From a virus (Duplodnaviria > Heunggongvirae > Uroviricota > Caudoviricetes), in IMG/VR virus record IMGVR_UViG_2703718798_000012, positions 1 through 14,664 of that record: a stretch of DNA of 14,664 bases, one strand, 5' to 3'. A model generated the notes under the pieces. It had not been told where the DNA came from and made no database searches. It saw only the letters and a list, made by a program, of their open reading frames with translations. Positions 4,397 through 9,885 of the stretch are shown piece after piece. Numbering within the stretch: the stretch's first letter is position 1; every line of letters starts with the position of its first letter. Made by a program: the position numbers and the translations under genes.

Positions 4397-5308
4397 TCAC
4401 CAGTTGAAGTTCGTTGAGCCGTAGTCCTGTTCACTGAATCCCGAGATCGGGAGGCTTTTGCCCCGCCCACCTCCGGGGGCTGCTGGCTGTTGCCAGGATT
4501 CCTCGAAATGACGATCGGGTCCAAAGAACGTCGACGCCTGCTTCACGAACTGGGTACCGGTATTTCCAGAGACACGCACCCAGGCGGCATAGCGTTTCAC
4601 ACCGTTGAGCATGGTTTCGGGTGTCACACCTTCCCTGATTCGGGCTTTCCAGGCTTTGAAGGCTGCTGACTTGGAATTACCACCAGCACGTTTGGGATAT
4701 TCCTGCCAGGCCTGTTCAAATTCCGGTGAATATTCCTGTCTGGCAGAACGCGCTGGTGCAGACGCGTCAGCGGATGCGCCAATATCTTGCGGTTCATGTT
4801 TTGAATTTACTGGTGGTTCATGTTTTAAACCTTGTGGATCTGGGGTCAGATTCTGAAGGGTCAAACGCGTATTTTTGCCAGAATCTGAAGGGTCAAACAC
4901 ACCTGAACATACAGATTCTGACGGTTCAGATTTTGAAGGTTCAGAATCTGAAGGGTCACGTAATCCTGAAAGTCTGCGCTGCTGTTTCAGTTCTGCAACC
5001 TTATCCCGCTCAGTTCTGGCAAGCAGCTCAAGCCGATCAGCATTCAGATGATAAAGATTGGACGTATTACGGTTACCTTTGCGGCGTGACTGACGCGTCA
5101 GCCAGCCATCAGCCTCCAGTTCGGAGATTGCCGTTCTGACTGTACTTTCTCCCAACCCAAGCTGTCGGCATATGGTTTCAACACCTGGGTAGCACACCCC
5201 GTCATCATTCGAATAATCCGCCAAGCGCGCCATAATCATCAGTTTTGCACCTTTGATGCCATATGCTGCACATGCATCCCAGACATTACCTAGGATTTTG
5301 CTACTCAT
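4397..5308 (-). CDS. Replication initiator, O-like (N-terminal winged-helix-like domain, repeat-rich linker carrying origin iterons)
   Basis: 303 aa, GGGAGG 6 nt upstream of ATG 5308. Central DPSDSEPSKSEPSE-type peptide repeats are encoded by DNA direct repeats, the arrangement seen in lambda O/ori. Specific family not resolved. Confidence 0.65.
   Translation of the reverse strand: MSSKILGNVWDACAAYGIKGAKLMIMARLADYSNDDGVCYPGVETICRQLGLGESTVRTAISELEADGWLTRQSRRKGNRNTSNLYHLNADRLELLARTERDKVAELKQQRRLSGLRDPSDSEPSKSEPSESVCSGVFDPSDSGKNTRLTLQNLTPDPQGLKHEPPVNSKHEPQDIGASADASAPARSARQEYSPEFEQAWQEYPKRAGGNSKSAAFKAWKARIREGVTPETMLNGVKRYAAWVRVSGNTGTQFVKQASTFFGPDRHFEESWQQPAAPGGGRGKSLPISGFSEQDYGSTNFNW
4846..4960. 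repeat. Origin-like iteron array inside the O-like gene, with adjacent AT-rich segment and a second 12-bp direct repeat (4791..4826)
   Basis: About five copies of TCAGAWTCTGAAGGGTCA-like 18-20-mers (4846..4866, 4878..4898, 4912..4930, 4925..4945, 4941..4960). GGTTCATGTTTT repeated at 4791..4802 and 4815..4826 in an AT-rich stretch 4781..4830. Confidence 0.7.
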
Positions 5309-5529
5309 ACGGCACCTCCCAGACGCTTAAACATTTTTCCGGACTGAAACGCCACCAGCGGATAACTCAGGGTATGAGTACGTCCCTGAACCTGGCAGAC
5401 AACCTTCTGGCTTTCTATATTGACCAGGCAAACCCGCAGAACGTGTCCGTTGCTGGTGGTGAACCACTGCCCCACACGGGGGCAATGGTTGTATCGGTGA
5501 TACAGGAAATTAACGATGTGGCGGATCAT
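5305..5529 (-). CDS. Hypothetical small protein (74 aa), translationally coupled between rha3 and the O-like gene
   Basis: ATG overlaps the upstream stop as ATGA, and its own stop overlaps the O-like ATG as ATGA. No recognisable domain; occupies roughly the cII position. Confidence 0.4.
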   Translation of the reverse strand: MIRHIVNFLYHRYNHCPRVGQWFTTSNGHVLRVCLVNIESQKVVCQVQGRTHTLSYPLVAFQSGKMFKRLGGAV

Positions 5530-6089
5530 GGACGCACCTCCTTGTCAGAACCATTCAGCCTGGAATCAACAAGTGCAGCACCAAAAACAGCATCACCTAC
5601 ACGGTCGTACAGTTTGCTGGCCAGCGGAGATTCAACAGCCTTAAGCATTGGATAAAGCTGGCTTGTCCAGATTTGATGGATTTCACGCAAATGCAGGTAT
5701 ACGCCTCTGGCGTTTCGTGCGACAGCTGACATATCAGACGCATCGGCACCTGATAAACTCTTCTCCATCTGGTTAAAGGCATTGATGTATGCCTCTTTGA
5801 ACCGGGCAGCACGTTTACCAGTGAAGCCCATAGCAAGAAACGCAAAGCCGTCGCGGGTTATTTGATAGCAAGGAAGTTTGCGAGTACCGCCGTTGGGCTG
5901 GCGTACCAAAATTGATGTCTCCGCAAAATTGCGGGCACAAAACTCTGGAGAACAATCCAAAATGCGGATCTTTTTCAGAACATCGTCATGACGTTTAGAG
6001 AAGAAGTCAGCAACAGCCAAAGAAGATGTAACAGCCTGACCATCAACGATGGCAATTTCAGGTTGAGAGAGGGTTGGGAGAGTAGTCAT
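5526..6089 (-). CDS. Phage regulatory protein, Rha family (third tandem paralog)
   Basis: Conservative start ATG 6089..6087 gives 187 aa beginning MTTLPTLSQPEIAIVDGQAV, with the Rha-type motif FSKRHDDVLKKI and ITRDGFAFLAMGFTG. The frame stays open upstream to ATG 6389 (ORF track 5526..6389) and to a conserved ATG at 6230; true start uncertain. Confidence 0.6.
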   Translation of the reverse strand: MTTLPTLSQPEIAIVDGQAVTSSLAVADFFSKRHDDVLKKIRILDCSPEFCARNFAETSILVRQPNGGTRKLPCYQITRDGFAFLAMGFTGKRAARFKEAYINAFNQMEKSLSGADASDMSAVARNARGVYLHLREIHQIWTSQLYPMLKAVESPLASKLYDRVGDAVFGAALVDSRLNGSDKEVRP

Positions 6090-6162
6090 AGTGACAGCCC
6101 CGGTAGTCAGTTTTTTAGAAAACTCACCACATGGGACGCCAATCACAGAGGTGGTGAGACGT

Positions 6163-6243
6163 ACAGGGTTGGCGTTACCGGAGACTACCGAACCCGGCCC
6201 GACCGAAGTCGGCCCTGTACGCCCCACCATAATTTGGGCGTAG
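6163..6243 (-). promoter_or_regulatory. Conserved structured leader element, copy B, upstream of rha3
   Basis: Shares with copy A the 20-mer ACGCC-N2-AATTATGGTGGG and a 3' AACCCTGT block, and has a perfect hairpin CCGAC-UUCG-GUCGG (6199..6212) at the same offset (10 nt after the 12-mer). Confidence 0.5.
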
Positions 6244-6259
6244 TAATGCTCATGACACG

Positions 6260-6281
6260 AAAAAACCGCATGAGCGCGGTT
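6260..6281 (-). terminator. Terminator-like hairpin plus T-tract inside the rha2-rha3 spacer
   Basis: Minus-strand AACCGC-gctcat-GCGGTT followed by TTTT (6-T run in total), about 25 nt upstream of leader copy B. Confidence 0.4.
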
Positions 6282-6385
6282 ATGCTCAGTAATCAATTTC
6301 AGGACGCCAATCCCGGCACCCGTTTTATAAGGTGCCGGAACAGTGTAACGTCCCGGACTTGCAGAATCAATATGCTGGTGGCGCG

Positions 6386-6748
6386 TCATTGATGCACCTC
6401 CCGTTGATTACGACGGAACACGGAGTGACCCTGGACGGCTTCAGCCTCATGGAATGCTTCAATGCAGCTCTCGTAGTACCGCATGGTGCGCAGACTTAAC
6501 CCAAGCTGTAGCATCATCAGACCATCACGGGTGATGTAATAACCACGCACTGAATCGCCATAGGCGCGATAAGTGCCGGGAATAAAGTTGCGGGTGAGAA
6601 ATTCGCGTGAGCAGTTGAGATATTCGATTCGATCGATGATATTCTTATGCATGCGCTTAAAGTGACAGGCGACATACAGGGAGAATATAACGGCTCTGCC
6701 GTTGACGACCTCGATTTTGAGGTATGGATGTGCGGGGATCGTAGCCAT
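6386..6748 (-). CDS. Phage regulatory protein, Rha family (second tandem paralog)
   Basis: Conservative start ATG 6748..6746 with AGGAGG 9 nt upstream gives 120 aa (MATIPAHPYLKIEVVNGRAV...FKRMHKNIIDRI...ITRDGLMML). The frame stays open upstream to ATG 7240 (ORF track 6386..7240) and to a conserved ATG at 6886. Confidence 0.6.
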   Translation of the reverse strand: MATIPAHPYLKIEVVNGRAVIFSLYVACHFKRMHKNIIDRIEYLNCSREFLTRNFIPGTYRAYGDSVRGYYITRDGLMMLQLGLSLRTMRYYESCIEAFHEAEAVQGHSVFRRNQREVHQ

Positions 6749-6818
6749 TAAGGCAGCCTCCTGTAACAGTGGAACAGTTCCACCACCGGAGGTCTCAATC
6801 TCGCTGGTGGCGGACTGG

Positions 6819-6900
6819 ACAGGGTTGAGACTACCGGCGTTACAGGAAACCGGCGAACCTTTCGGTTCCCCTGCCCAGCCCACCATAATTCTGGCGTGCA
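6819..6900 (-). promoter_or_regulatory. Conserved structured leader element, copy A, upstream of rha2
   Basis: Same 20-mer and 3' block as copy B; perfect hairpin GAACC-GAAA-GGUUC (6855..6868) at the identical offset. Different stem and loop sequence from copy B with pairing preserved. Confidence 0.5.
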
Positions 6901-6910
6901 AGGACGCTGA

Positions 6911-6934
6911 CAACAAAAAAGACGCTGGCGCGTC
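6911..6934 (-). terminator. Terminator-like hairpin plus T-tract inside the rha1-rha2 spacer
   Basis: Minus-strand GACGC-gcca-GCGTC followed by TTTTTTGTTG, about 20 nt upstream of leader copy A. Confidence 0.4.
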
Positions 6935-7242
6935 ATTTGTCGCCTGTAACAATTCCGGGGTCTCACTCCCGATAGTGGATTTTGCCACTATATGTAAAGT
7001 GTGCCGCCGGAATTTAATTTTGTCAACGAGGTTAAATATAGAGTCGCTATGTTGGTGGCGCTTCGCACTCAACAAAATCACGACGAAACAACCACAGCGG
7101 GATGAAGCATTCATGCGGATAACCATCACGCAGGTAAATAACCCGCTGTGTTTCAGACTCCCAGCGTATAACGTGGACGCGACGCCCCCTTCCATCACGG
7201 AACCAGCGATTGAGTACTTGCATGTGTTACCTGTGAGCATAA

Positions 7243-7950
7243 TTACACCTGCCAGCCCAGCGCCTGGAACAACCCCATTTTCGGGTGATACCAGCGAGTA
7301 CCTCGTGGTTCTGCTTCACTCGTCATGCGATGAAAAGCAGACATGAAGGGTTCCACAGCAACAATAGCGCGACGCGATAACAATCCATCCGGCGTCATGA
7401 ACTCATGGGTGTCGGTAGGGATCTGATATGCGTTCACCAGATTGCGGCATTTCGCATCTGACATACCCGTTTTCGCCGCCAGCTGACGATAGCCTGCATA
7501 ACCATCGCGTATGGCGCCTCTTTTGATTTGTTCGACAGTTTCGGTAACGTGACTGACTTTTTCTTCTACCCGCTCAAGGCGTTTCTGCTGACGAACAGCT
7601 TCAAGAGCCATCGCGGCAACCATTTCGATTTCGCTCATTGGCTTGCGGATCTGTTCTTCCAGTTCGCGCCAGCGGTCTACCAGACGGGCTGTGAATTCAG
7701 GGCAAAGCTGTGCGACAACAATGATGCTGTCGCGTTTGCCTTGTTCGCCTTCAAACAGATAATGCTCGTGTTGAACTTTAAACCCTAAGTTATTGATTCT
7801 TTCGGAAACCTCAATTTGAGGAGATCGGACAACACCACCTTTAGCTAATGTTTCAATAGTGCGTTTCACATTGTCATGACGCTTACCCACCAGCTCTGCG
7901 ATCTCAACGCTGGTCATGGATGCTTTATCGGTAAAAATTGTTGTATTCAC
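7243..7950 (-). CDS. Phage regulatory protein, Rha family (first tandem paralog, with C-terminal extension)
   Basis: 235 aa. GTG start at 7950 with AGGAG 7 nt upstream, overlapping the cro-like stop (GTGA). N-terminal SVEIAELVGKRHDNVKRTIETL is the characteristic Rha motif (recalled Pfam Phage_pRha pattern). Confidence 0.7.
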   Translation of the reverse strand: MNTTIFTDKASMTSVEIAELVGKRHDNVKRTIETLAKGGVVRSPQIEVSERINNLGFKVQHEHYLFEGEQGKRDSIIVVAQLCPEFTARLVDRWRELEEQIRKPMSEIEMVAAMALEAVRQQKRLERVEEKVSHVTETVEQIKRGAIRDGYAGYRQLAAKTGMSDAKCRNLVNAYQIPTDTHEFMTPDGLLSRRAIVAVEPFMSAFHRMTSEAEPRGTRWYHPKMGLFQALGWQV

Positions 7951-8210
7951 TGTTTATCTCCTTCGCACACTCCATCTTCTGTGTGCGCTAAACTTGGGTG
8001 TGGGAAAAGCTCCGGTAGATCAGGACGAAATTCATACGCCTGGACTTTCCCATCGACCGCCTTAACCAGAGACGGAACAAATTCAGGAGAAATTTTTTTC
8101 TTCCCATTCAGCCAGTCGCAAATTGTTGACTGCGCGCGACCACAACGCCTAGCCAGAGCAATCTGGCTTCCCGCAATATCTACAGCCTTGGCTATACCTT
8201 CATTTTTCAT
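7947..8210 (-). CDS. Cro-like HTH transcriptional regulator
   Basis: 87 aa from ATG 8210..8208 with GGAGG 5 nt upstream (ORF track starts 9 codons earlier at a GTG). HTH segment GSQIALARRCGRAQSTICDWLNGKK; divergent from the CI-like gene across an operator-rich spacer. Confidence 0.7.
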   Translation of the reverse strand: MKNEGIAKAVDIAGSQIALARRCGRAQSTICDWLNGKKKISPEFVPSLVKAVDGKVQAYEFRPDLPELFPHPSLAHTEDGVCEGDKQ

Positions 8211-8235
8211 ATCGACCTCCAACCTGATTCCATTC

Positions 8236-8264
8236 ACTATAGCGATTGATTAAAGCGATTGCAA
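8236..8264 (-). promoter_or_regulatory. PR-like sigma70 promoter for the cro-like operon, with two direct CAATCGCT repeats in the spacer
   Basis: Minus-strand -35 TTGCAA (8264..8259), 17-nt spacer, -10 TATAGT (8241..8236). Spacer contains CAATCGCT twice; the 13-mer CTATAGCGATTGA (8237..8249) recurs at 9152..9164. Confidence 0.5.
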
Positions 8265-8282
8265 TGTACGGGAAAGCGGTTT

Positions 8283-8308
8283 GTGTATATATCGCTAAGG
8301 CGATACAC
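8283..8308. promoter_or_regulatory. Inverted-repeat operator candidate upstream of the CI-like gene (PRM region)
   Basis: Core TATCGC-taag-GCGATA (8290..8305), extended by flanking GTGTAT / ATACAC arms. Lies about 30-50 nt upstream of the CI start; promoter hexamers not confidently placed. Confidence 0.4.
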
Positions 8309-8333
8309 TAAAAGGGCAGAAAAAGGAGGACTT

Positions 8334-9038
8334 ATGAGCTTTTCAGACAGGCTACAGTTAGCTATGACTATCCGCGGATACTCGCAGGGAAAACTGGCCA
8401 GAGAGGTTGGCATGGCTCAATCGAGCGTAAATAAACTGGTTAATGGTGCCACAGGCTCCAGGAAAGTTGTGGAGATAGCCAATACCCTGAACGTGCGCCC
8501 CGAGTGGCTATCGTACGGTGTTGGTCCTATGACCCCAGAAGAAAGCACATCCTGCAATCCGACACCACAGGTATCATATTCCCCGCTGGAAAATGATAAG
8601 GATATTTTTCGTGTGGAAGTCCTGGATATCGCTGCCAGCGCGGGACCAGGAACATTCCTTGTTTCAGATTTTGCAGAAACGGTCCATGCTATAGAATTTT
8701 CACATGACGCCGCAAGACGTCTGTTCTGTAGCAGGCCAGCAAATATCATAAAGATGATAACAGTTGATGGCGACAGCATGGCTCCTACTCTGTGTGCAGG
8801 AGATCAGGTGTTTGTCGACGTATCCGTCAGAAATTTTGAAACTGACGGTATCTATATTTTTATTTTTGGGCACACTTTCCATATCAAACGCCTGCAAATG
8901 CAAGGGATGCAACTTGCTGTTATATCAGACAATCCGGCCTACAAGGAATGGTTTATAAGTGAATCAGCTGAAGAACATCTATTCATAATGGGGAAAGTTC
9001 TCATTCATCAGTCAATCCAGTATAACAGGGTCGGATAA
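8334..9038 (+). CDS. CI-like prophage repressor (N-terminal HTH, C-terminal S24/LexA-type autopeptidase)
   Basis: 234 aa from ATG 8334 with AAAAGGAGGA upstream. HTH LAREVGMAQSSVNKLVNG; Ala-Gly cleavage-type site in AASAGPG; peptidase Ser in VDGDSMAPT and Lys in FHIKRL. Implies RecA/SOS-inducible repressor. Confidence 0.85.
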   Translation: MSFSDRLQLAMTIRGYSQGKLAREVGMAQSSVNKLVNGATGSRKVVEIANTLNVRPEWLSYGVGPMTPEESTSCNPTPQVSYSPLENDKDIFRVEVLDIAASAGPGTFLVSDFAETVHAIEFSHDAARRLFCSRPANIIKMITVDGDSMAPTLCAGDQVFVDVSVRNFETDGIYIFIFGHTFHIKRLQMQGMQLAVISDNPAYKEWFISESAEEHLFIMGKVLIHQSIQYNRVG

Positions 9039-9286: not shown

Positions 9287-9885
9287 TCTATTCCTACATG
9301 TCAGAAAACGGAGCAGAAAGTGAGAGGGTTTATAATGCAATCAGATGCCTGATGCGTTCCCTGCAAAAAACAGAAGAAACTGCATCAATTTTTGCAGAAA
9401 AACTATGTGAGGCAAAAGCTATGGTTTCGCATGGTCACTTTTTTGGAAAAATCCGTGCCCAACGTGAAGCCTGCGGCTTGACGACCACCGAACTTGCCAA
9501 ACTGCTTGATCTCGATGAAGAGATCATCCTGCAATGGGAGAGCGGAGAGTTCGAACCGACCATCAGCATGCTTATCCCCCTGGCAAACGTCATTGGGTGC
9601 GATCCGCTTTCTTTGCTGGATGAAAAAGATAGCGCGTCTGTTATTCGCGTAAATGCGCCTGAAGTCTACGTGGAAAGTATTGGCGCACGCATCAAAAGCG
9701 CACGTAAAAAACTGGGCTTAACGGAAGCTGATCTTGCCCGCATGATTAATACCTATAGCGACCCCATAAACGACTGGGAATGCGGCATCTGTGAAGTTCC
9801 TGCTGATCAGATAGTGCCACTGGCCAGTGCGCTTAATTGTGACCTGATGTGGTTGTTAACGGGAAAATCAGAAGCAAAGGAGTAG
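9283..9885 (+). CDS. Tandem HTH (two XRE-type domains) DNA-binding protein
   Basis: 200 aa. Two canonical HTH_XRE-like segments (GKIRAQREACGLTTTELAKLLDLDEEIILQWESGEFEP and GARIKSARKKLGLTEADLARMINTYSDPINDWECG). First gene of the PL-like operon. Confidence 0.7.
   Translation: MIYSYMSENGAESERVYNAIRCLMRSLQKTEETASIFAEKLCEAKAMVSHGHFFGKIRAQREACGLTTTELAKLLDLDEEIILQWESGEFEPTISMLIPLANVIGCDPLSLLDEKDSASVIRVNAPEVYVESIGARIKSARKKLGLTEADLARMINTYSDPINDWECGICEVPADQIVPLASALNCDLMWLLTGKSEAKE

What the first reader, a model, noticed from the sequence alone, without database searches (positions are those of the whole stretch)
5526..7240. Conflicting signal: both rha leaders are also open in-frame with the downstream gene, and the long ORFs start exactly at the upstream stops
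The frame of rha2 is open for 164 codons upstream of its SD-supported ATG, back to an ATG at 7240 two bases after the rha1 stop. The frame of rha3 is open for 100 codons upstream, back to an ATG at 6389 overlapping the rha2 stop (ATGA). The conserved AATTATGGTGGG block contains an in-frame ATG (6886 and 6230) in both copies, and the two leaders differ in length by exactly 3 nt. So either the Rha paralogs have unusual low-complexity N-terminal extensions translated through terminator-like hairpins, or the leaders are non-coding and kept free of stops for another reason. The Rha domain is normally N-terminal, which favours the short gene models, but the coincidence is too tidy to ignore.
Basis: seen in the sequence. 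Interest (0 to 1): 0.6.

Follow-up and report, generated by a model that had tools for sequence, protein, structure and literature searches.

The report
RNA immunity genes nested inside ORFs
Each "rha leader" is a copy of a known phage P4-type RNA immunity cassette (isrK/seqA element plus C4/CI antisense RNA) lying inside a long reading frame that evolution keeps open, so the tidy coincidence is real but matches an architecture already described in phage P4 and Salmonella Gifsy-1.

Summary
On the minus strand, ORFs 7240..6386 and 6389..5526 are open 164 and 100 codons upstream of the Rha starts. Both have an in-frame ATG (6886, 6230) in the conserved block, and the leaders differ by 3 nt.

Each leader holds an isrK (RF01394) match and a C4 antisense RNA (RF01695) match, all above Rfam's gathering scores. 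Translated, the same DNA matches Pfam Phage_ASH. Phage P4 has the same layout. Its isrK/seqA and C4/CI elements lie inside the 199-codon eta ORF, which starts ATGA on the upstream stop. The kil gene is nested in frame.

In 104 related cassettes, stops are about tenfold depleted in this frame. Lengths vary only in multiples of three. In 19 of 51 distinct start contexts the long ORF starts ATGA on an upstream stop. The leader shows no third-codon-position excess, while the Rha domain does.

So the frame is conserved but the peptide apparently is not. The ATG in the conserved block corresponds to Gifsy-1 orf45, which is known to be translated; here it is fused in frame to Rha.

Most likely, ribosomes coming from the upstream operon read through the cassette and override RNA-mediated termination and repression, as reported for P4 eta. 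Translation itself is inferred, not shown. This is a new member of a known kind; interest is modest.

The parts
8236..8264 (-). Sigma-70-like promoter (TTGCAA-17-TATAGT) ahead of the cro-like gene. It is the candidate early (PR-like) promoter whose transcripts would carry ribosomes into the long ORFs.
   Evidence: Consensus scan. Operon order comes from the PGAP annotation of the 94%-identical E. coli locus L001. Its role is inferred.
7243..7950 (-). rha1, a Rha-family gene with no cassette. Its stop (7245..7243) lies 2 nt before the long-ORF-1 ATG.
   Evidence: Pfam Phage_pRha E = 1.4e-09.
7047..7223 (-). 58-aa DUF4222 gene, nested out of frame inside the first part of long ORF 1.
   Evidence: Pfam PF13973 E = 7.7e-16. 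The same nesting occurs in L011.
6386..7240 (-). Long ORF 1 (284 codons), eta-like. It spans the DUF4222 overlap, the internal promoter, isrK-1, C4-1, the target boxes and rha2, all in one frame.
   Evidence: Pfam Phage_ASH covers aa 85-172 (54.6 bits) and Phage_pRha covers aa 187-267.
6998..7026 (-). Candidate internal promoter 1 (PLE-like): TTGACA (7026..7021), 17-nt spacer, CACACT (7003..6998), 6 nt before the 5' end of the isrK match at 6991.
   Evidence: Read from the sequence. The geometry matches module 2 and P4 PLE. The consensus scan did not call it.
6915..6991 (-). isrK/seqA-like element 1. It carries decoy boxes a1 (GTGAGAC, 6966..6960) and b1 (TGTTACAGG, 6951..6943) and an intrinsic terminator (6934..6915).
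   Evidence: Rfam RF01394, 63.7 bits against a gathering score of 50. Terminator. Boxes.
6803..6890 (-). C4/CI-like antisense RNA 1. Its specificity loop b' is TTTCCTGTAACG (6849..6838) and its a' segment is AGTCTCAA (6832..6825). The in-frame orf45-like AUG is at 6886..6884.
   Evidence: Rfam RF01695, 82.4 bits against a gathering score of 45. Coordinates.
6757..6798 (-). Downstream target boxes of module 1: a2 (TTGAGAC, 6798..6792) and b2 (TGTTACAGGAGG, 6768..6757). Box b2 overlaps the rha2 Shine-Dalgarno sequence.
   Evidence: 15-nt stretch of pairing (G-U allowed) with the C4-1 loop. Coordinates.
6386..6748 (-). rha2 short form, in the position of P4 kil and Gifsy-1 anrP. Its start context GGAGGCTGCCTTAATGGCTAC is homologous to the P4 kil start.
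   Evidence: Alignment with P4.
5526..6389 (-). Long ORF 2 (287 codons), eta-like. Its ATG overlaps the rha2 stop (ATGA) and is preceded by the SD GGGAGGTG (6402..6395).
   Evidence: Pfam Phage_ASH covers aa 15-110 (39.3 bits) and Phage_pRha covers aa 121-210 (94.3 bits). PGAP annotates this long model in L001.
6342..6370 (-). Candidate internal promoter 2: TTGATT (6370..6365), 17-nt spacer, TACACT (6347..6342), 6 nt before the 5' end of the isrK match at 6335.
   Evidence: Read from the sequence. The TACACT box is conserved in the alignment. It falls below the scan threshold.
6259..6335 (-). isrK/seqA-like element 2. It carries a1 (TTGGCGT, 6310..6304), b1 (GATTACTGAGC, 6294..6284) and a terminator (6281..6260).
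   Evidence: Rfam RF01394, 60.1 bits. Supporting results.
6147..6234 (-). C4/CI-like antisense RNA 2. Its loop b' is GTTCGGTAGTCT (6193..6182) and its a' segment is AACGCCAA (6176..6169). The in-frame AUG is at 6230..6228.
   Evidence: Rfam RF01695, 82.3 bits. Stems differ from copy 1 by compensatory changes, visible in the alignments.
6098..6142 (-). Downstream target boxes of module 2: a2 (TTGGCGT, 6142..6136) and b2 (GACTACCGGGG, 6108..6098). Box b2 lies just upstream of the rha3 ATG.
5526..6089 (-). rha3 short form (187 codons), holding the Rha domain.
5305..5529 (-). Next gene (74 aa). It is joined to rha3 by the same kind of junction, SD plus ATGA (AAGGAGGTGCGTCCATGA), as the junction that starts long ORF 2.

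Best explanation
The region holds two tandem P4-type RNA immunity cassettes inside the early rightward operon of a lambdoid E. coli prophage. The gene order is cI / cro-like / rha1 / DUF4222 / cassette 1 / cassette 2 / replication genes.

Each cassette has, in order:
- an internal promoter;
- an isrK/seqA-like RNA ending in an intrinsic terminator;
- a C4/CI-like antisense RNA;
- two short boxes complementary to that C4 RNA, the second overlapping the Shine-Dalgarno sequence of a Rha-family (Bro-network, antirepressor-like) gene.

The isrK element carries decoy copies of both boxes.

All of this lies inside one long reading frame. That frame starts at the stop codon of the upstream gene and runs in frame into the Rha gene, so each cassette has three nested in-frame starts. 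The first is the eta-like start (7240, 6389). The second is the orf45-like AUG at nucleotide 106 of the isrK transcript (6886, 6230). The third is the kil/anrP-like start (6748, 6089).

Proposed mechanism, by homology. In the lysogen only the internal promoters fire. They make short isrK RNA and processed C4 RNA. C4 pairs with its boxes, blocks the Rha ribosome-binding site and favours termination. On transcripts from the upstream early promoter, ribosomes coupled from the preceding gene translate straight through the promoter, terminator and C4 sequences. This prevents those RNA structures and pairings from forming. The operon then reads through, and a long Rha form is made.

The frame is kept for ribosome transit, not for the peptide.

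Shown here: RNA family membership, cognate complementarity, conservation of the frame, ATGA coupling, and homology to P4 eta/kil.

Inferred: promoter activity, RNA processing, actual translation, and its anti-termination effect.
For: RNA genes:
- Rfam gathering-level matches in both leaders: isrK at 63.7 and 60.1 bits, C4 at 82.4 and 82.3 bits. The two copies differ by compensatory stem changes.
- Intrinsic terminators lie at 6934..6915 and 6281..6260.
- The C4 loops pair with their own downstream boxes. Module 1 has a 15-nt stretch of pairing (G-U allowed) that covers the AGGAGG SD. Module 2 has 10 nt.
- Across 112 cassettes, the longest Watson-Crick match of the loop to its own downstream box has median 9 nt, against 4 nt for non-cognate boxes. 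For isrK it is 8 against 4. There are 46 distinct loops.

Homology to P4:
- In NC_001609 the isrK match (8692..8615) and the C4 match (8507..8420) lie inside ORF 8767..8168 (199 codons).
- That ORF starts ATGATGATG on the vis/ORF88 stop. A 65-codon in-frame nested ORF begins MATTLTPSHPEF.
- Pfam Phage_ASH covers P4 Eta aa 22-146 (E = 3.8e-23) and both window leaders.
- The three leaders align. P4 is 84 nt, or 28 codons, longer.

Frame under selection:
- In 104 unique cassettes the long-ORF frame has 0.11, 0.12 and 0.15 stops per segment, against 0.9 to 1.8 in the other frames.
- The distance from isrK hairpin 1 to the C4 AUG takes eight values from 86 to 134 nt. All equal 2 mod 3, although the sub-intervals vary by non-multiples of 3.
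- In hypervariable boxes, stop triplets by frame 0/1/2 are 1/27/7, 8/32/43 and 8/17/31 (P = 1e-5, 5e-7, 1e-3).
- 19 of 51 distinct long-ORF start contexts are ATGA overlaps with the stop of an upstream ORF. A further 10 lie within 22 nt of such a stop.
- Negative control: C4-like elements found with a pattern that lacks the ATG span a frame-0 ORF in 8 of the 9 best-scoring hits. Those nine are mostly Enterobacterales, plus Aeromonas, Salinisphaera and a contig labelled Chryseobacterium. Only 3 of the remaining 47, mostly Pseudomonas, do so, which equals the background of the other frames.

Peptide not conserved:
- Column entropy by codon position is 0.66/0.72/0.74 in the leader and 0.63/0.55/1.03 in the Rha domain.

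Literature:
- Gifsy-1 orf45 is translated from its first AUG (nt 107), and that translation is needed for AnrP. [quoted passage not shown]
- P4 eta contains a constitutive internal promoter, CI and seqA. [quoted passage not shown] 1999).
Against: - No direct evidence of translation, transcription starts or RNA processing exists for this locus.
- The internal promoters fall just below the consensus-scan threshold.
- The primary P4 paper (Forti et al. 1999, J Bacteriol 181:5225) could not be read. The mechanism rests on a secondary summary and on my recollection of that paper.
- The comparative sample is dominated by related enterobacterial prophages. Counts are therefore not phylogenetically independent, and the first scan pattern required the ATG.
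- For module 1 the eta-like start is ambiguous. The stretch 7240..7047 overlaps a real DUF4222 gene in another frame, and no ATG lies between 7047 and 6886.
- Lambdoid phages may already have N/Q-type antitermination, which would make translation-dependent read-through less necessary.
- RNA constraints could mask amino-acid-level selection, so a function for the peptide is not excluded.
Confidence: 0.78

Rival explanations
1. Only the 3' part of each leader is translated, as in the Gifsy-1 IsrK-orf45-AnrP model. Ribosomes start at the orf45-like AUG (6886, 6230) and, because no stop intervenes here, make a Rha protein with a 46- or 47-residue extension. The open frame upstream of that AUG, through isrK and back to the upstream stop, has no function.
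For: orf45 translation and its requirement for AnrP are shown experimentally in Gifsy-1, and an orf45-anrP fusion of 287 aa is noted there (PMC4825925). The AUG sits at nt 106 of both isrK transcripts, against 107 in Gifsy-1. For module 1 the upstream stretch overlaps a DUF4222 gene out of frame.
Against: Frame-specific stop depletion extends through isrK and the 60 nt upstream of it. The distance from isrK hairpin 1 to the C4 AUG is always 2 mod 3 across eight length classes, plus P4. Long-ORF starts are ATGA-coupled to upstream stops in 19 of 51 distinct contexts, usually with an SD. P4 eta is reported to be translated from upstream of the internal promoter (PMC10111431).
Confidence: 0.15
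2. The leaders are purely non-coding RNA. The open frame is a by-product of strong nucleotide conservation of G+C-rich structured RNAs descended from an ancestor that happened to lack stops in one frame.
For: The RNA families are real and well conserved. The leader shows no third-codon-position excess. Random sequence of this composition is open over 300 nt about 4% of the time. The Gifsy-1 authors found nucleotide conservation but not amino-acid conservation of orf45.
Against: Stops are excluded from frame 0 even in hypervariable specificity boxes that have been replaced many times (1/27/7, 8/32/43 and 8/17/31 by frame). Indels between isrK and C4 compensate to multiples of 3. ATGA coupling recurs with unrelated upstream genes. 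The Pseudomonas-type C4 elements lack the frame, so the RNA itself does not impose it.
Confidence: 0.06
3. The long ORFs encode genuine two-domain proteins, an Ash domain plus a Rha domain, as Pfam and PGAP annotate them. In this reading the N-terminal ~100 residues have a function of their own as a peptide, and the RNA elements merely overlap them.
For: Pfam Phage_ASH matches lie above the gathering score (54.6 and 39.3 bits against 26). PGAP annotates 'ash family protein' and long Rha models in E. coli genomes. The frame is conserved.
Against: Codon-position variability in the leader is flat, unlike the adjacent Rha domain. The Phage_ASH profile coincides exactly with the isrK-plus-C4 span in both the window and P4. 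The Gifsy-1 study found that the ORF45 amino-acid sequence varies. In P4-like satellites the same frame continues about 100 codons out of frame across an epsilon-like gene, giving a non-protein-like sequence.
Confidence: 0.1

Closest known systems
Phage P4 immunity region: nested genes eta and kil containing promoter PLE, seqA, the cI (CI RNA) gene and seqC (Forti et al. 1999, J Bacteriol 181:5225, as summarised in PMC10111431)
   Same: The order of elements and the reading frame are the same. The long ORF starts on the stop of the upstream gene (ATGA). It contains the internal promoter, the isrK/seqA match, the C4/CI match and the a2/b2 target boxes, and it runs in frame into a nested gene whose start context GGAGGCTGCC(A/T)T(C/A)ATGGCTAC is nearly identical. 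Phage_ASH covers the same span.
   Different: The host element is a lambdoid prophage early operon, not a satellite. The nested gene is a 121- or 187-codon Rha-family gene rather than the 65-codon kil. P4 has 84 extra nt between terminator and CI. There are two tandem cassettes with different specificity boxes. Cassette 1 has a DUF4222 gene nested out of frame in the upstream part of the long ORF.
Salmonella Gifsy-1 IsrK-orf45-AnrP locus (Hershko-Shalev et al. 2016, PMC4825925)
   Same: An isrK RNA with its own terminator. A leader ORF starting at an AUG about 106-107 nt into the transcript, inside the C4/STnc1160-like segment. A downstream antirepressor-like gene. Complementarity between isrK and the 3' part of the leader ORF.
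   Different: In Gifsy-1, orf45 ends with a stop overlapping the anrP start (AUGA, a different frame). Here there is no stop, and the AUG is in frame with Rha; the paper notes such a fusion in passing for S. dysenteriae. Here the frame is also open upstream through isrK to the preceding gene. No antQ gene lies upstream.
P1/P7 immI operon: c4 antisense RNA, icd, ant (from my knowledge of Citron and Schuster 1990; family RF01695)
   Same: A C4-family RNA is processed from the leader of the operon it controls. Two single-stranded segments (a', b') pair with boxes upstream (a1, b1) and downstream (a2, b2). Box b2 occludes the ribosome-binding site of the gene ahead of an antirepressor. Specificity varies between heteroimmune phages.
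   Different: I did not examine the P1 locus here. No eta-like ORF through c4 is known to me in P1. The downstream genes icd and ant are not homologous to Rha2 or Rha3.
Pfam PF10554 Phage_ASH ('Ash protein family') and PGAP 'ash family protein'
   Same: Both window leaders and P4 Eta match above the gathering score.
   Different: The profile corresponds to the conceptual translation of two Rfam RNA families. The leader does not evolve like a protein domain.

Membership tests
P4-type RNA immunity cassette (eta/kil, PLE, seqA, CI, seqC) | C4/CI-family RNA gene | tested here: met
   RF01695 at 82.4 and 82.3 bits against a gathering score of 45. P4 CI scores 74.9 bits with the same model.
P4-type RNA immunity cassette (eta/kil, PLE, seqA, CI, seqC) | seqA/isrK-like element upstream of CI, carrying a target for CI | tested here: met
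   RF01394 at 63.7 and 60.1 bits against a gathering score of 50. Boxes a1 and b1 are complementary to the cognate C4.
P4-type RNA immunity cassette (eta/kil, PLE, seqA, CI, seqC) | Target sequence downstream of CI (seqC-like), ahead of the first translated gene | tested here: met
   Box b2 overlaps the rha2 SD and lies just upstream of the rha3 ATG. Own-versus-other complementarity is 9 nt against 4 nt.
P4-type RNA immunity cassette (eta/kil, PLE, seqA, CI, seqC) | Long ORF (eta) enclosing promoter, seqA and CI, in frame with a nested downstream gene (kil) | tested here: met
   ORFs 7240..6386 and 6389..5526, compared with P4 ORF 8767..8168 and its nested MATTL... ORF.
P4-type RNA immunity cassette (eta/kil, PLE, seqA, CI, seqC) | Long ORF translationally coupled to the upstream gene | tested here: met
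   Module 2 has an ATGA overlap plus the SD GGGAGGTG. Module 1 has its ATG 2 nt after the rha1 stop. 19 of 51 distinct contexts in homologues are ATGA overlaps. This shows the sequence arrangement only; coupling itself was not measured.
P4-type RNA immunity cassette (eta/kil, PLE, seqA, CI, seqC) | Constitutive promoter internal to the long ORF | tested here: inconclusive
   TTGACA-17-CACACT and TTGATT-17-TACACT end 6 nt before the 5' ends of the isrK matches, with the same geometry as P4. Both fall below the scan threshold.
P4-type RNA immunity cassette (eta/kil, PLE, seqA, CI, seqC) | CI released by processing; CI-dependent premature termination; translation of eta suppresses it | not testable with these tools
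   This needs Northern blots or term-seq, Ribo-seq and genetics. It is known for P4 only through PMC10111431.
Gifsy-1 IsrK-orf45-AnrP system | isrK RNA with a Rho-independent terminator, followed by a leader ORF starting about 107 nt into the transcript | tested here: met
   The AUGs at 6886 and 6230 are at nt 106 of the isrK matches. The paper places the first AUG at A107.
Gifsy-1 IsrK-orf45-AnrP system | orf45 is a separate 45-codon ORF whose stop overlaps the anrP start (AUGA) | tested here: not met
   There is no stop here. The AUG is in frame with Rha, 46 and 47 codons upstream. The paper notes such a fused variant for S. dysenteriae.
Gifsy-1 IsrK-orf45-AnrP system | Downstream antirepressor-like gene; antQ upstream | tested here: inconclusive
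   The downstream genes are Rha-family, which belongs to the Bro network. Homology to AnrP was not tested. The upstream genes are rha1 and DUF4222, not a Q-like antiterminator.
Pfam Phage_ASH (PF10554) | HMM score above the gathering threshold | tested here: met
   54.6 and 39.3 bits against a threshold of 26.
Pfam Phage_ASH (PF10554) | Evolves as a protein domain (amino-acid-level purifying selection) | tested here: not met
   Entropy by codon position is 0.66/0.72/0.74 in the leader and 0.63/0.55/1.03 in the Rha domain of the same ORFs. Overlapping RNA constraints could mask weak selection.
P1/P7 c4-icd-ant (immI) | C4 RNA with a'/b' segments complementary to a1/b1 upstream and a2/b2 downstream, with b2 at a ribosome-binding site | tested here: met
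P1/P7 c4-icd-ant (immI) | Downstream icd and ant genes | not tested
   The P1 locus was not retrieved. The downstream genes here are Rha-family.

The most novel reading that the evidence does not exclude
In enterobacterial prophages and satellites, the ~100-codon 'Ash' reading frame is not a protein domain. It is a conserved track for ribosomes laid over two RNA genes, a promoter and a terminator. Selection would act only on keeping the frame open and on coupling it to the upstream gene. Translation from early-operon transcripts would then physically erase the RNA immunity switch. On this reading, Pfam Phage_ASH is the translation of Rfam isrK plus C4. The same track can run for 60 to 100 codons out of frame across real genes, such as DUF4222 here and the epsilon-like gene in P4-like satellites. 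Tandem cassettes with different boxes would give a lambdoid phage two independently addressable RNA locks on its antirepressor-like genes and on read-through to the replication genes.
Probability: 0.45. Interest if true: 0.5.

Novelty: new member of a known kind. Interest (0 to 1): 0.35.

Why it matters
It resolves an apparent conflict in annotation. In well over a thousand E. coli genomes this DNA is annotated as 'ash family' or long Rha proteins, while Rfam models call the same DNA isrK and C4 RNAs. Both calls describe one dual-use element.

The comparative signature found here is an open frame with mod-3 indels and ATGA coupling, but without codon-position bias. It is a clean example of selection for the act of translation rather than for its product. 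It extends the P4 eta/kil logic to lambdoid prophages that carry Rha-family genes.

In practice, gene models for these Rha and 'Ash' proteins should list nested starts. The Phage_ASH family should be read with caution. Neither point overturns current understanding.

Tried and rejected
- Whole-molecule RNA duplex energies between each C4 and each target did not separate cognate from non-cognate pairs. I used contiguous complementarity and an own-versus-other test instead.
- The consensus promoter scan did not call the internal promoters. They are proposed from geometry and from homology to P4 only.
- NCBIfam has no 'ash' model matching the leaders; only TIGR02681 matched. The PGAP name therefore probably derives from Pfam.
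- The genome contigs pattern without the ATG was too loose. Most of the 120 loci were chance matches in G+C-rich genomes. I filtered them with an nhmmer profile, which left 56 C4-like hits.
- The primary P4 paper (PMC94026, PMID 10464191) is not held in the library.
- I considered the frame across DUF4222 as independent evidence for a long ORF. The two DUF4222 variants seen (window and L011) are roughly 80% identical by eye and share the arrangement by descent, so they do not count as independent.
- I considered structure prediction of the Ash region. I did not run it, because a low-confidence single-sequence model would not discriminate between the explanations.
- The codon-position test cannot fully exclude a peptide function, because RNA constraints overlap every codon.

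Full report
**Observation.** On the minus strand the window has three consecutive ORFs:
- 7950..7243, rha1;
- 7240..6386, 284 codons;
- 6389..5526, 287 codons.

The second starts two bases after the rha1 stop. The third starts with an ATG that overlaps the rha2 stop (ATGA). The Shine-Dalgarno-backed Rha starts at 6748 and 6089 lie 164 and 100 codons inside these frames. The ATGs at 6886 and 6230, in the repeated AATTATGGTGGG block, are in frame. The two leaders differ by 3 nt.

Each frame contains a terminator-like hairpin with a T-run. The long-ORF frame has no stops, while the other two frames have 6 to 10. Random sequences of the same composition are open with P = 0.0014 and P = 0.043.

**What the leaders are.** Rfam finds four matches above gathering score:
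- isrK (RF01394) at 6991..6915 and 6335..6259;
- C4 antisense RNA (RF01695) at 6890..6803 and 6234..6147.

The two C4 copies score about 82 bits and differ by compensatory stem changes.

Translated, the same DNA matches Pfam Phage_ASH, at aa 85-172 and aa 15-110 of the long ORFs. That span is exactly the isrK-plus-C4 region. PGAP annotates the long models in E. coli genomes as 'ash family protein' or long Rha-family proteins. The region has matches in 1,490 of 5,426 complete E. coli genomes.

**RNA logic.** The second hairpin loop of each C4 copy, and the single-stranded segment after it, are complementary to two boxes downstream in the same leader. The second box overlaps the rha2 SD (TGTTACAGGAGG) or lies just upstream of the rha3 ATG (GACTACCGGGG). 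Both are also complementary to decoy copies inside the cognate isrK element. The two cassettes carry different boxes.

Across 112 related cassettes there are 46 different loops. Each matches its own downstream box over a median of 9 nt, against 4 nt for non-cognate boxes. This is the a'/b' versus a1/b1 and a2/b2 layout of the P1/P7 c4 system and the seqA-CI-seqC layout of P4. The first comparison rests on my own knowledge; the second is described in PMC3632133 and PMC4825925.

**The open frame is conserved and frame-specific.** A pattern scan of viral contigs gave 133 cassettes, of which 104 unique ones had enough flanking sequence to analyse.
- In 86 of the 104 the downstream gene is in frame with the C4 AUG and no stop intervenes.
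- Frame 0 averages 0.11, 0.12 and 0.15 stops in the C4 segment, the isrK segment and the 60 nt upstream. The other frames average 0.9 to 1.8.
- The distance from isrK hairpin 1 to the C4 AUG takes eight values (86, 89, 92, 95, 98, 104, 125, 134 nt). All equal 2 mod 3, although the sub-intervals vary by non-multiples of three.
- P4 adds another class, 84 nt longer.
- In the hypervariable specificity boxes, stop triplets fall in frames 0/1/2 as 1/27/7 (C4 loop), 8/32/43 (b2) and 8/17/31 (b1). The binomial P values are 1e-5, 5e-7 and 1e-3.
- The first ATG of the long ORF is an ATGA overlap with the stop of an upstream ORF in 19 of 51 distinct sequence contexts, usually with a good SD. It lies within 22 nt of such a stop in 10 more.

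As a control I scanned species-representative genomes with a pattern that lacks the ATG, then filtered with an nhmmer profile. This gave 56 C4-like elements. The AUG is present in 49 of them. A frame-0 ORF spanning the element occurs in 8 of the 9 best-scoring hits. Those nine are mostly Enterobacterales, plus Aeromonas, Salinisphaera and a contig labelled Chryseobacterium. It occurs in only 3 of the other 47, mostly Pseudomonas, which equals the background of the other frames. So the RNA family does not itself impose the frame.

**The peptide is not conserved as a protein.** In 39 rha3-type long ORFs, column entropy by codon position is 0.66/0.72/0.74 over the 100 leader codons. It is 0.63/0.55/1.03 over the Rha domain. 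This agrees with the Gifsy-1 authors' remark that the orf45 nucleotide sequence is conserved while its amino-acid sequence varies. RNA constraints overlap every codon, so weak peptide selection cannot be excluded.

**Known homologues.**
- *P4.* In phage P4 (NC_001609) the isrK and C4 matches lie inside ORF 8767..8168 (199 codons). That ORF starts ATGATGATG on the stop of vis/ORF88. It contains an in-frame 65-codon ORF whose start context (GGAGGCTGCCATCATGGCTAC) is almost identical to the rha2 start. Phage_ASH covers Eta aa 22-146.
- *P4 mechanism.* PMC10111431, summarising Forti et al. 1999, gives the following account. A constitutive promoter lies inside eta. Its transcript is terminated through the CI and seqA interactions and is processed to CI. 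Kil is translated on read-through. Full-length Eta is translated only from an upstream promoter and is coupled to the upstream gene. Eta translation prevents termination.
- *Gifsy-1.* IsrK is followed by orf45, which is translated from an AUG at nt 107 and is needed for AnrP translation. A processed ~80-nt RNA (STnc1160) is compared there to CI. A supplementary legend notes an orf45-anrP fusion of 287 aa in S. dysenteriae (PMC4825925).

**Interpretation.** The window carries two tandem P4-type cassettes in the early operon of a lambdoid prophage (context from L001). Each has three nested in-frame starts: eta-like, orf45-like and kil/anrP-like.

I infer the following:
- In the lysogen, the internal promoters (TTGACA-17-CACACT and TTGATT-17-TACACT, each ending 6 nt before the 5' end of its isrK match) make isrK and C4 RNAs.
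- These RNAs close the Rha ribosome-binding sites and limit read-through.
- On early-operon transcripts, coupled ribosomes translate through the cassettes and override them.

Translation, promoter activity and RNA processing are not shown for this locus. The start of long ORF 1 is uncertain, because 7240..7047 overlaps a DUF4222 gene in another frame.

**Verdict.** The coincidence is real and selected. It is explained by an architecture already described in P4 and partly in Gifsy-1, so this is a new member of a known kind.

The modest new points are:
- the quantitative signature of a conserved frame without a conserved peptide;
- the exact coincidence of a Pfam family with two Rfam families;
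- the tandem cassettes with different specificity boxes in a lambdoid phage.

Noticed in passing
window 7047-7223 (-) inside 6386-7240 (-): A 58-aa DUF4222 gene (Pfam E = 7.7e-16) lies wholly within the upstream part of long ORF 1, in a different frame. The same nesting occurs in L011, where DUF4222 (4841..5020) lies inside long ORF 4692..5528, which itself starts ATGA on the upstream gene's stop. This may be true dual coding or a fortuitously open frame.
   Followed up: partly
window 6829-6837 (-) versus 6100-6108 (-): The C4-1 segment CCGGTAGTC is perfectly complementary to the module-2 b2 box GACTACCGG. GGTAGTCTC occurs in both C4 copies, but in different structural positions. Cassette 1 might therefore regulate cassette 2.
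   Followed up: no
L014, L015, L020, L026, L039 (coordinates): In cassettes from presumably P4-like satellite elements, the eta-like frame stays open about 100 codons out of frame across a 75-77-aa epsilon-like gene (Pfam PF25738, Derepression). It ends about 70 nt beyond that gene. The frame-0 translation does not look protein-like.
   Followed up: partly
Pfam PF10554 versus Rfam RF01394 + RF01695 (window 6803-6991 and 6147-6335; P4 L124 8420-8692): The Phage_ASH protein family corresponds to the conceptual translation of the isrK and C4 RNA genes. PGAP propagates the name 'ash family protein' in many E. coli genomes.
   Followed up: partly
L033 (three cassettes, at 1545, 2201 and 2857 on the minus-strand copy); L017, L018, L079, L097 (two each): Tandem arrays of two or three cassettes with different specificity loops are common in related prophages. 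The arrangement in this window is not unique.
   Followed up: partly
L082 (C4 AUG at 9833 on the minus-strand copy): An rha1-like ORF (MTSVEIAELVG...) is fused in frame to the cassette, giving 316 open codons upstream of the C4 AUG. In that locus the rha1 stop seems to be missing.
   Followed up: no
L125-L244 (genome-contig hits): C4-like elements are frequent in Pseudomonas genomes and keep the AUG at the 5' end of the RNA (49 of all 56 hits). They lack the long spanning frame. The AUG may therefore serve the RNA (unpaired A, then paired U and G in the Rfam consensus) or a short leader ORF.
   Followed up: partly
window 5305-5529 (-): The 74-aa ORF after rha3 (…GQWFTTSNGHVLRV…) resembles the ORF in the same position of L011 (5521..5757). 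It has no Pfam hit, though by eye it looks DUF4222-like. It is joined to rha3 by an SD plus ATGA.
   Followed up: no
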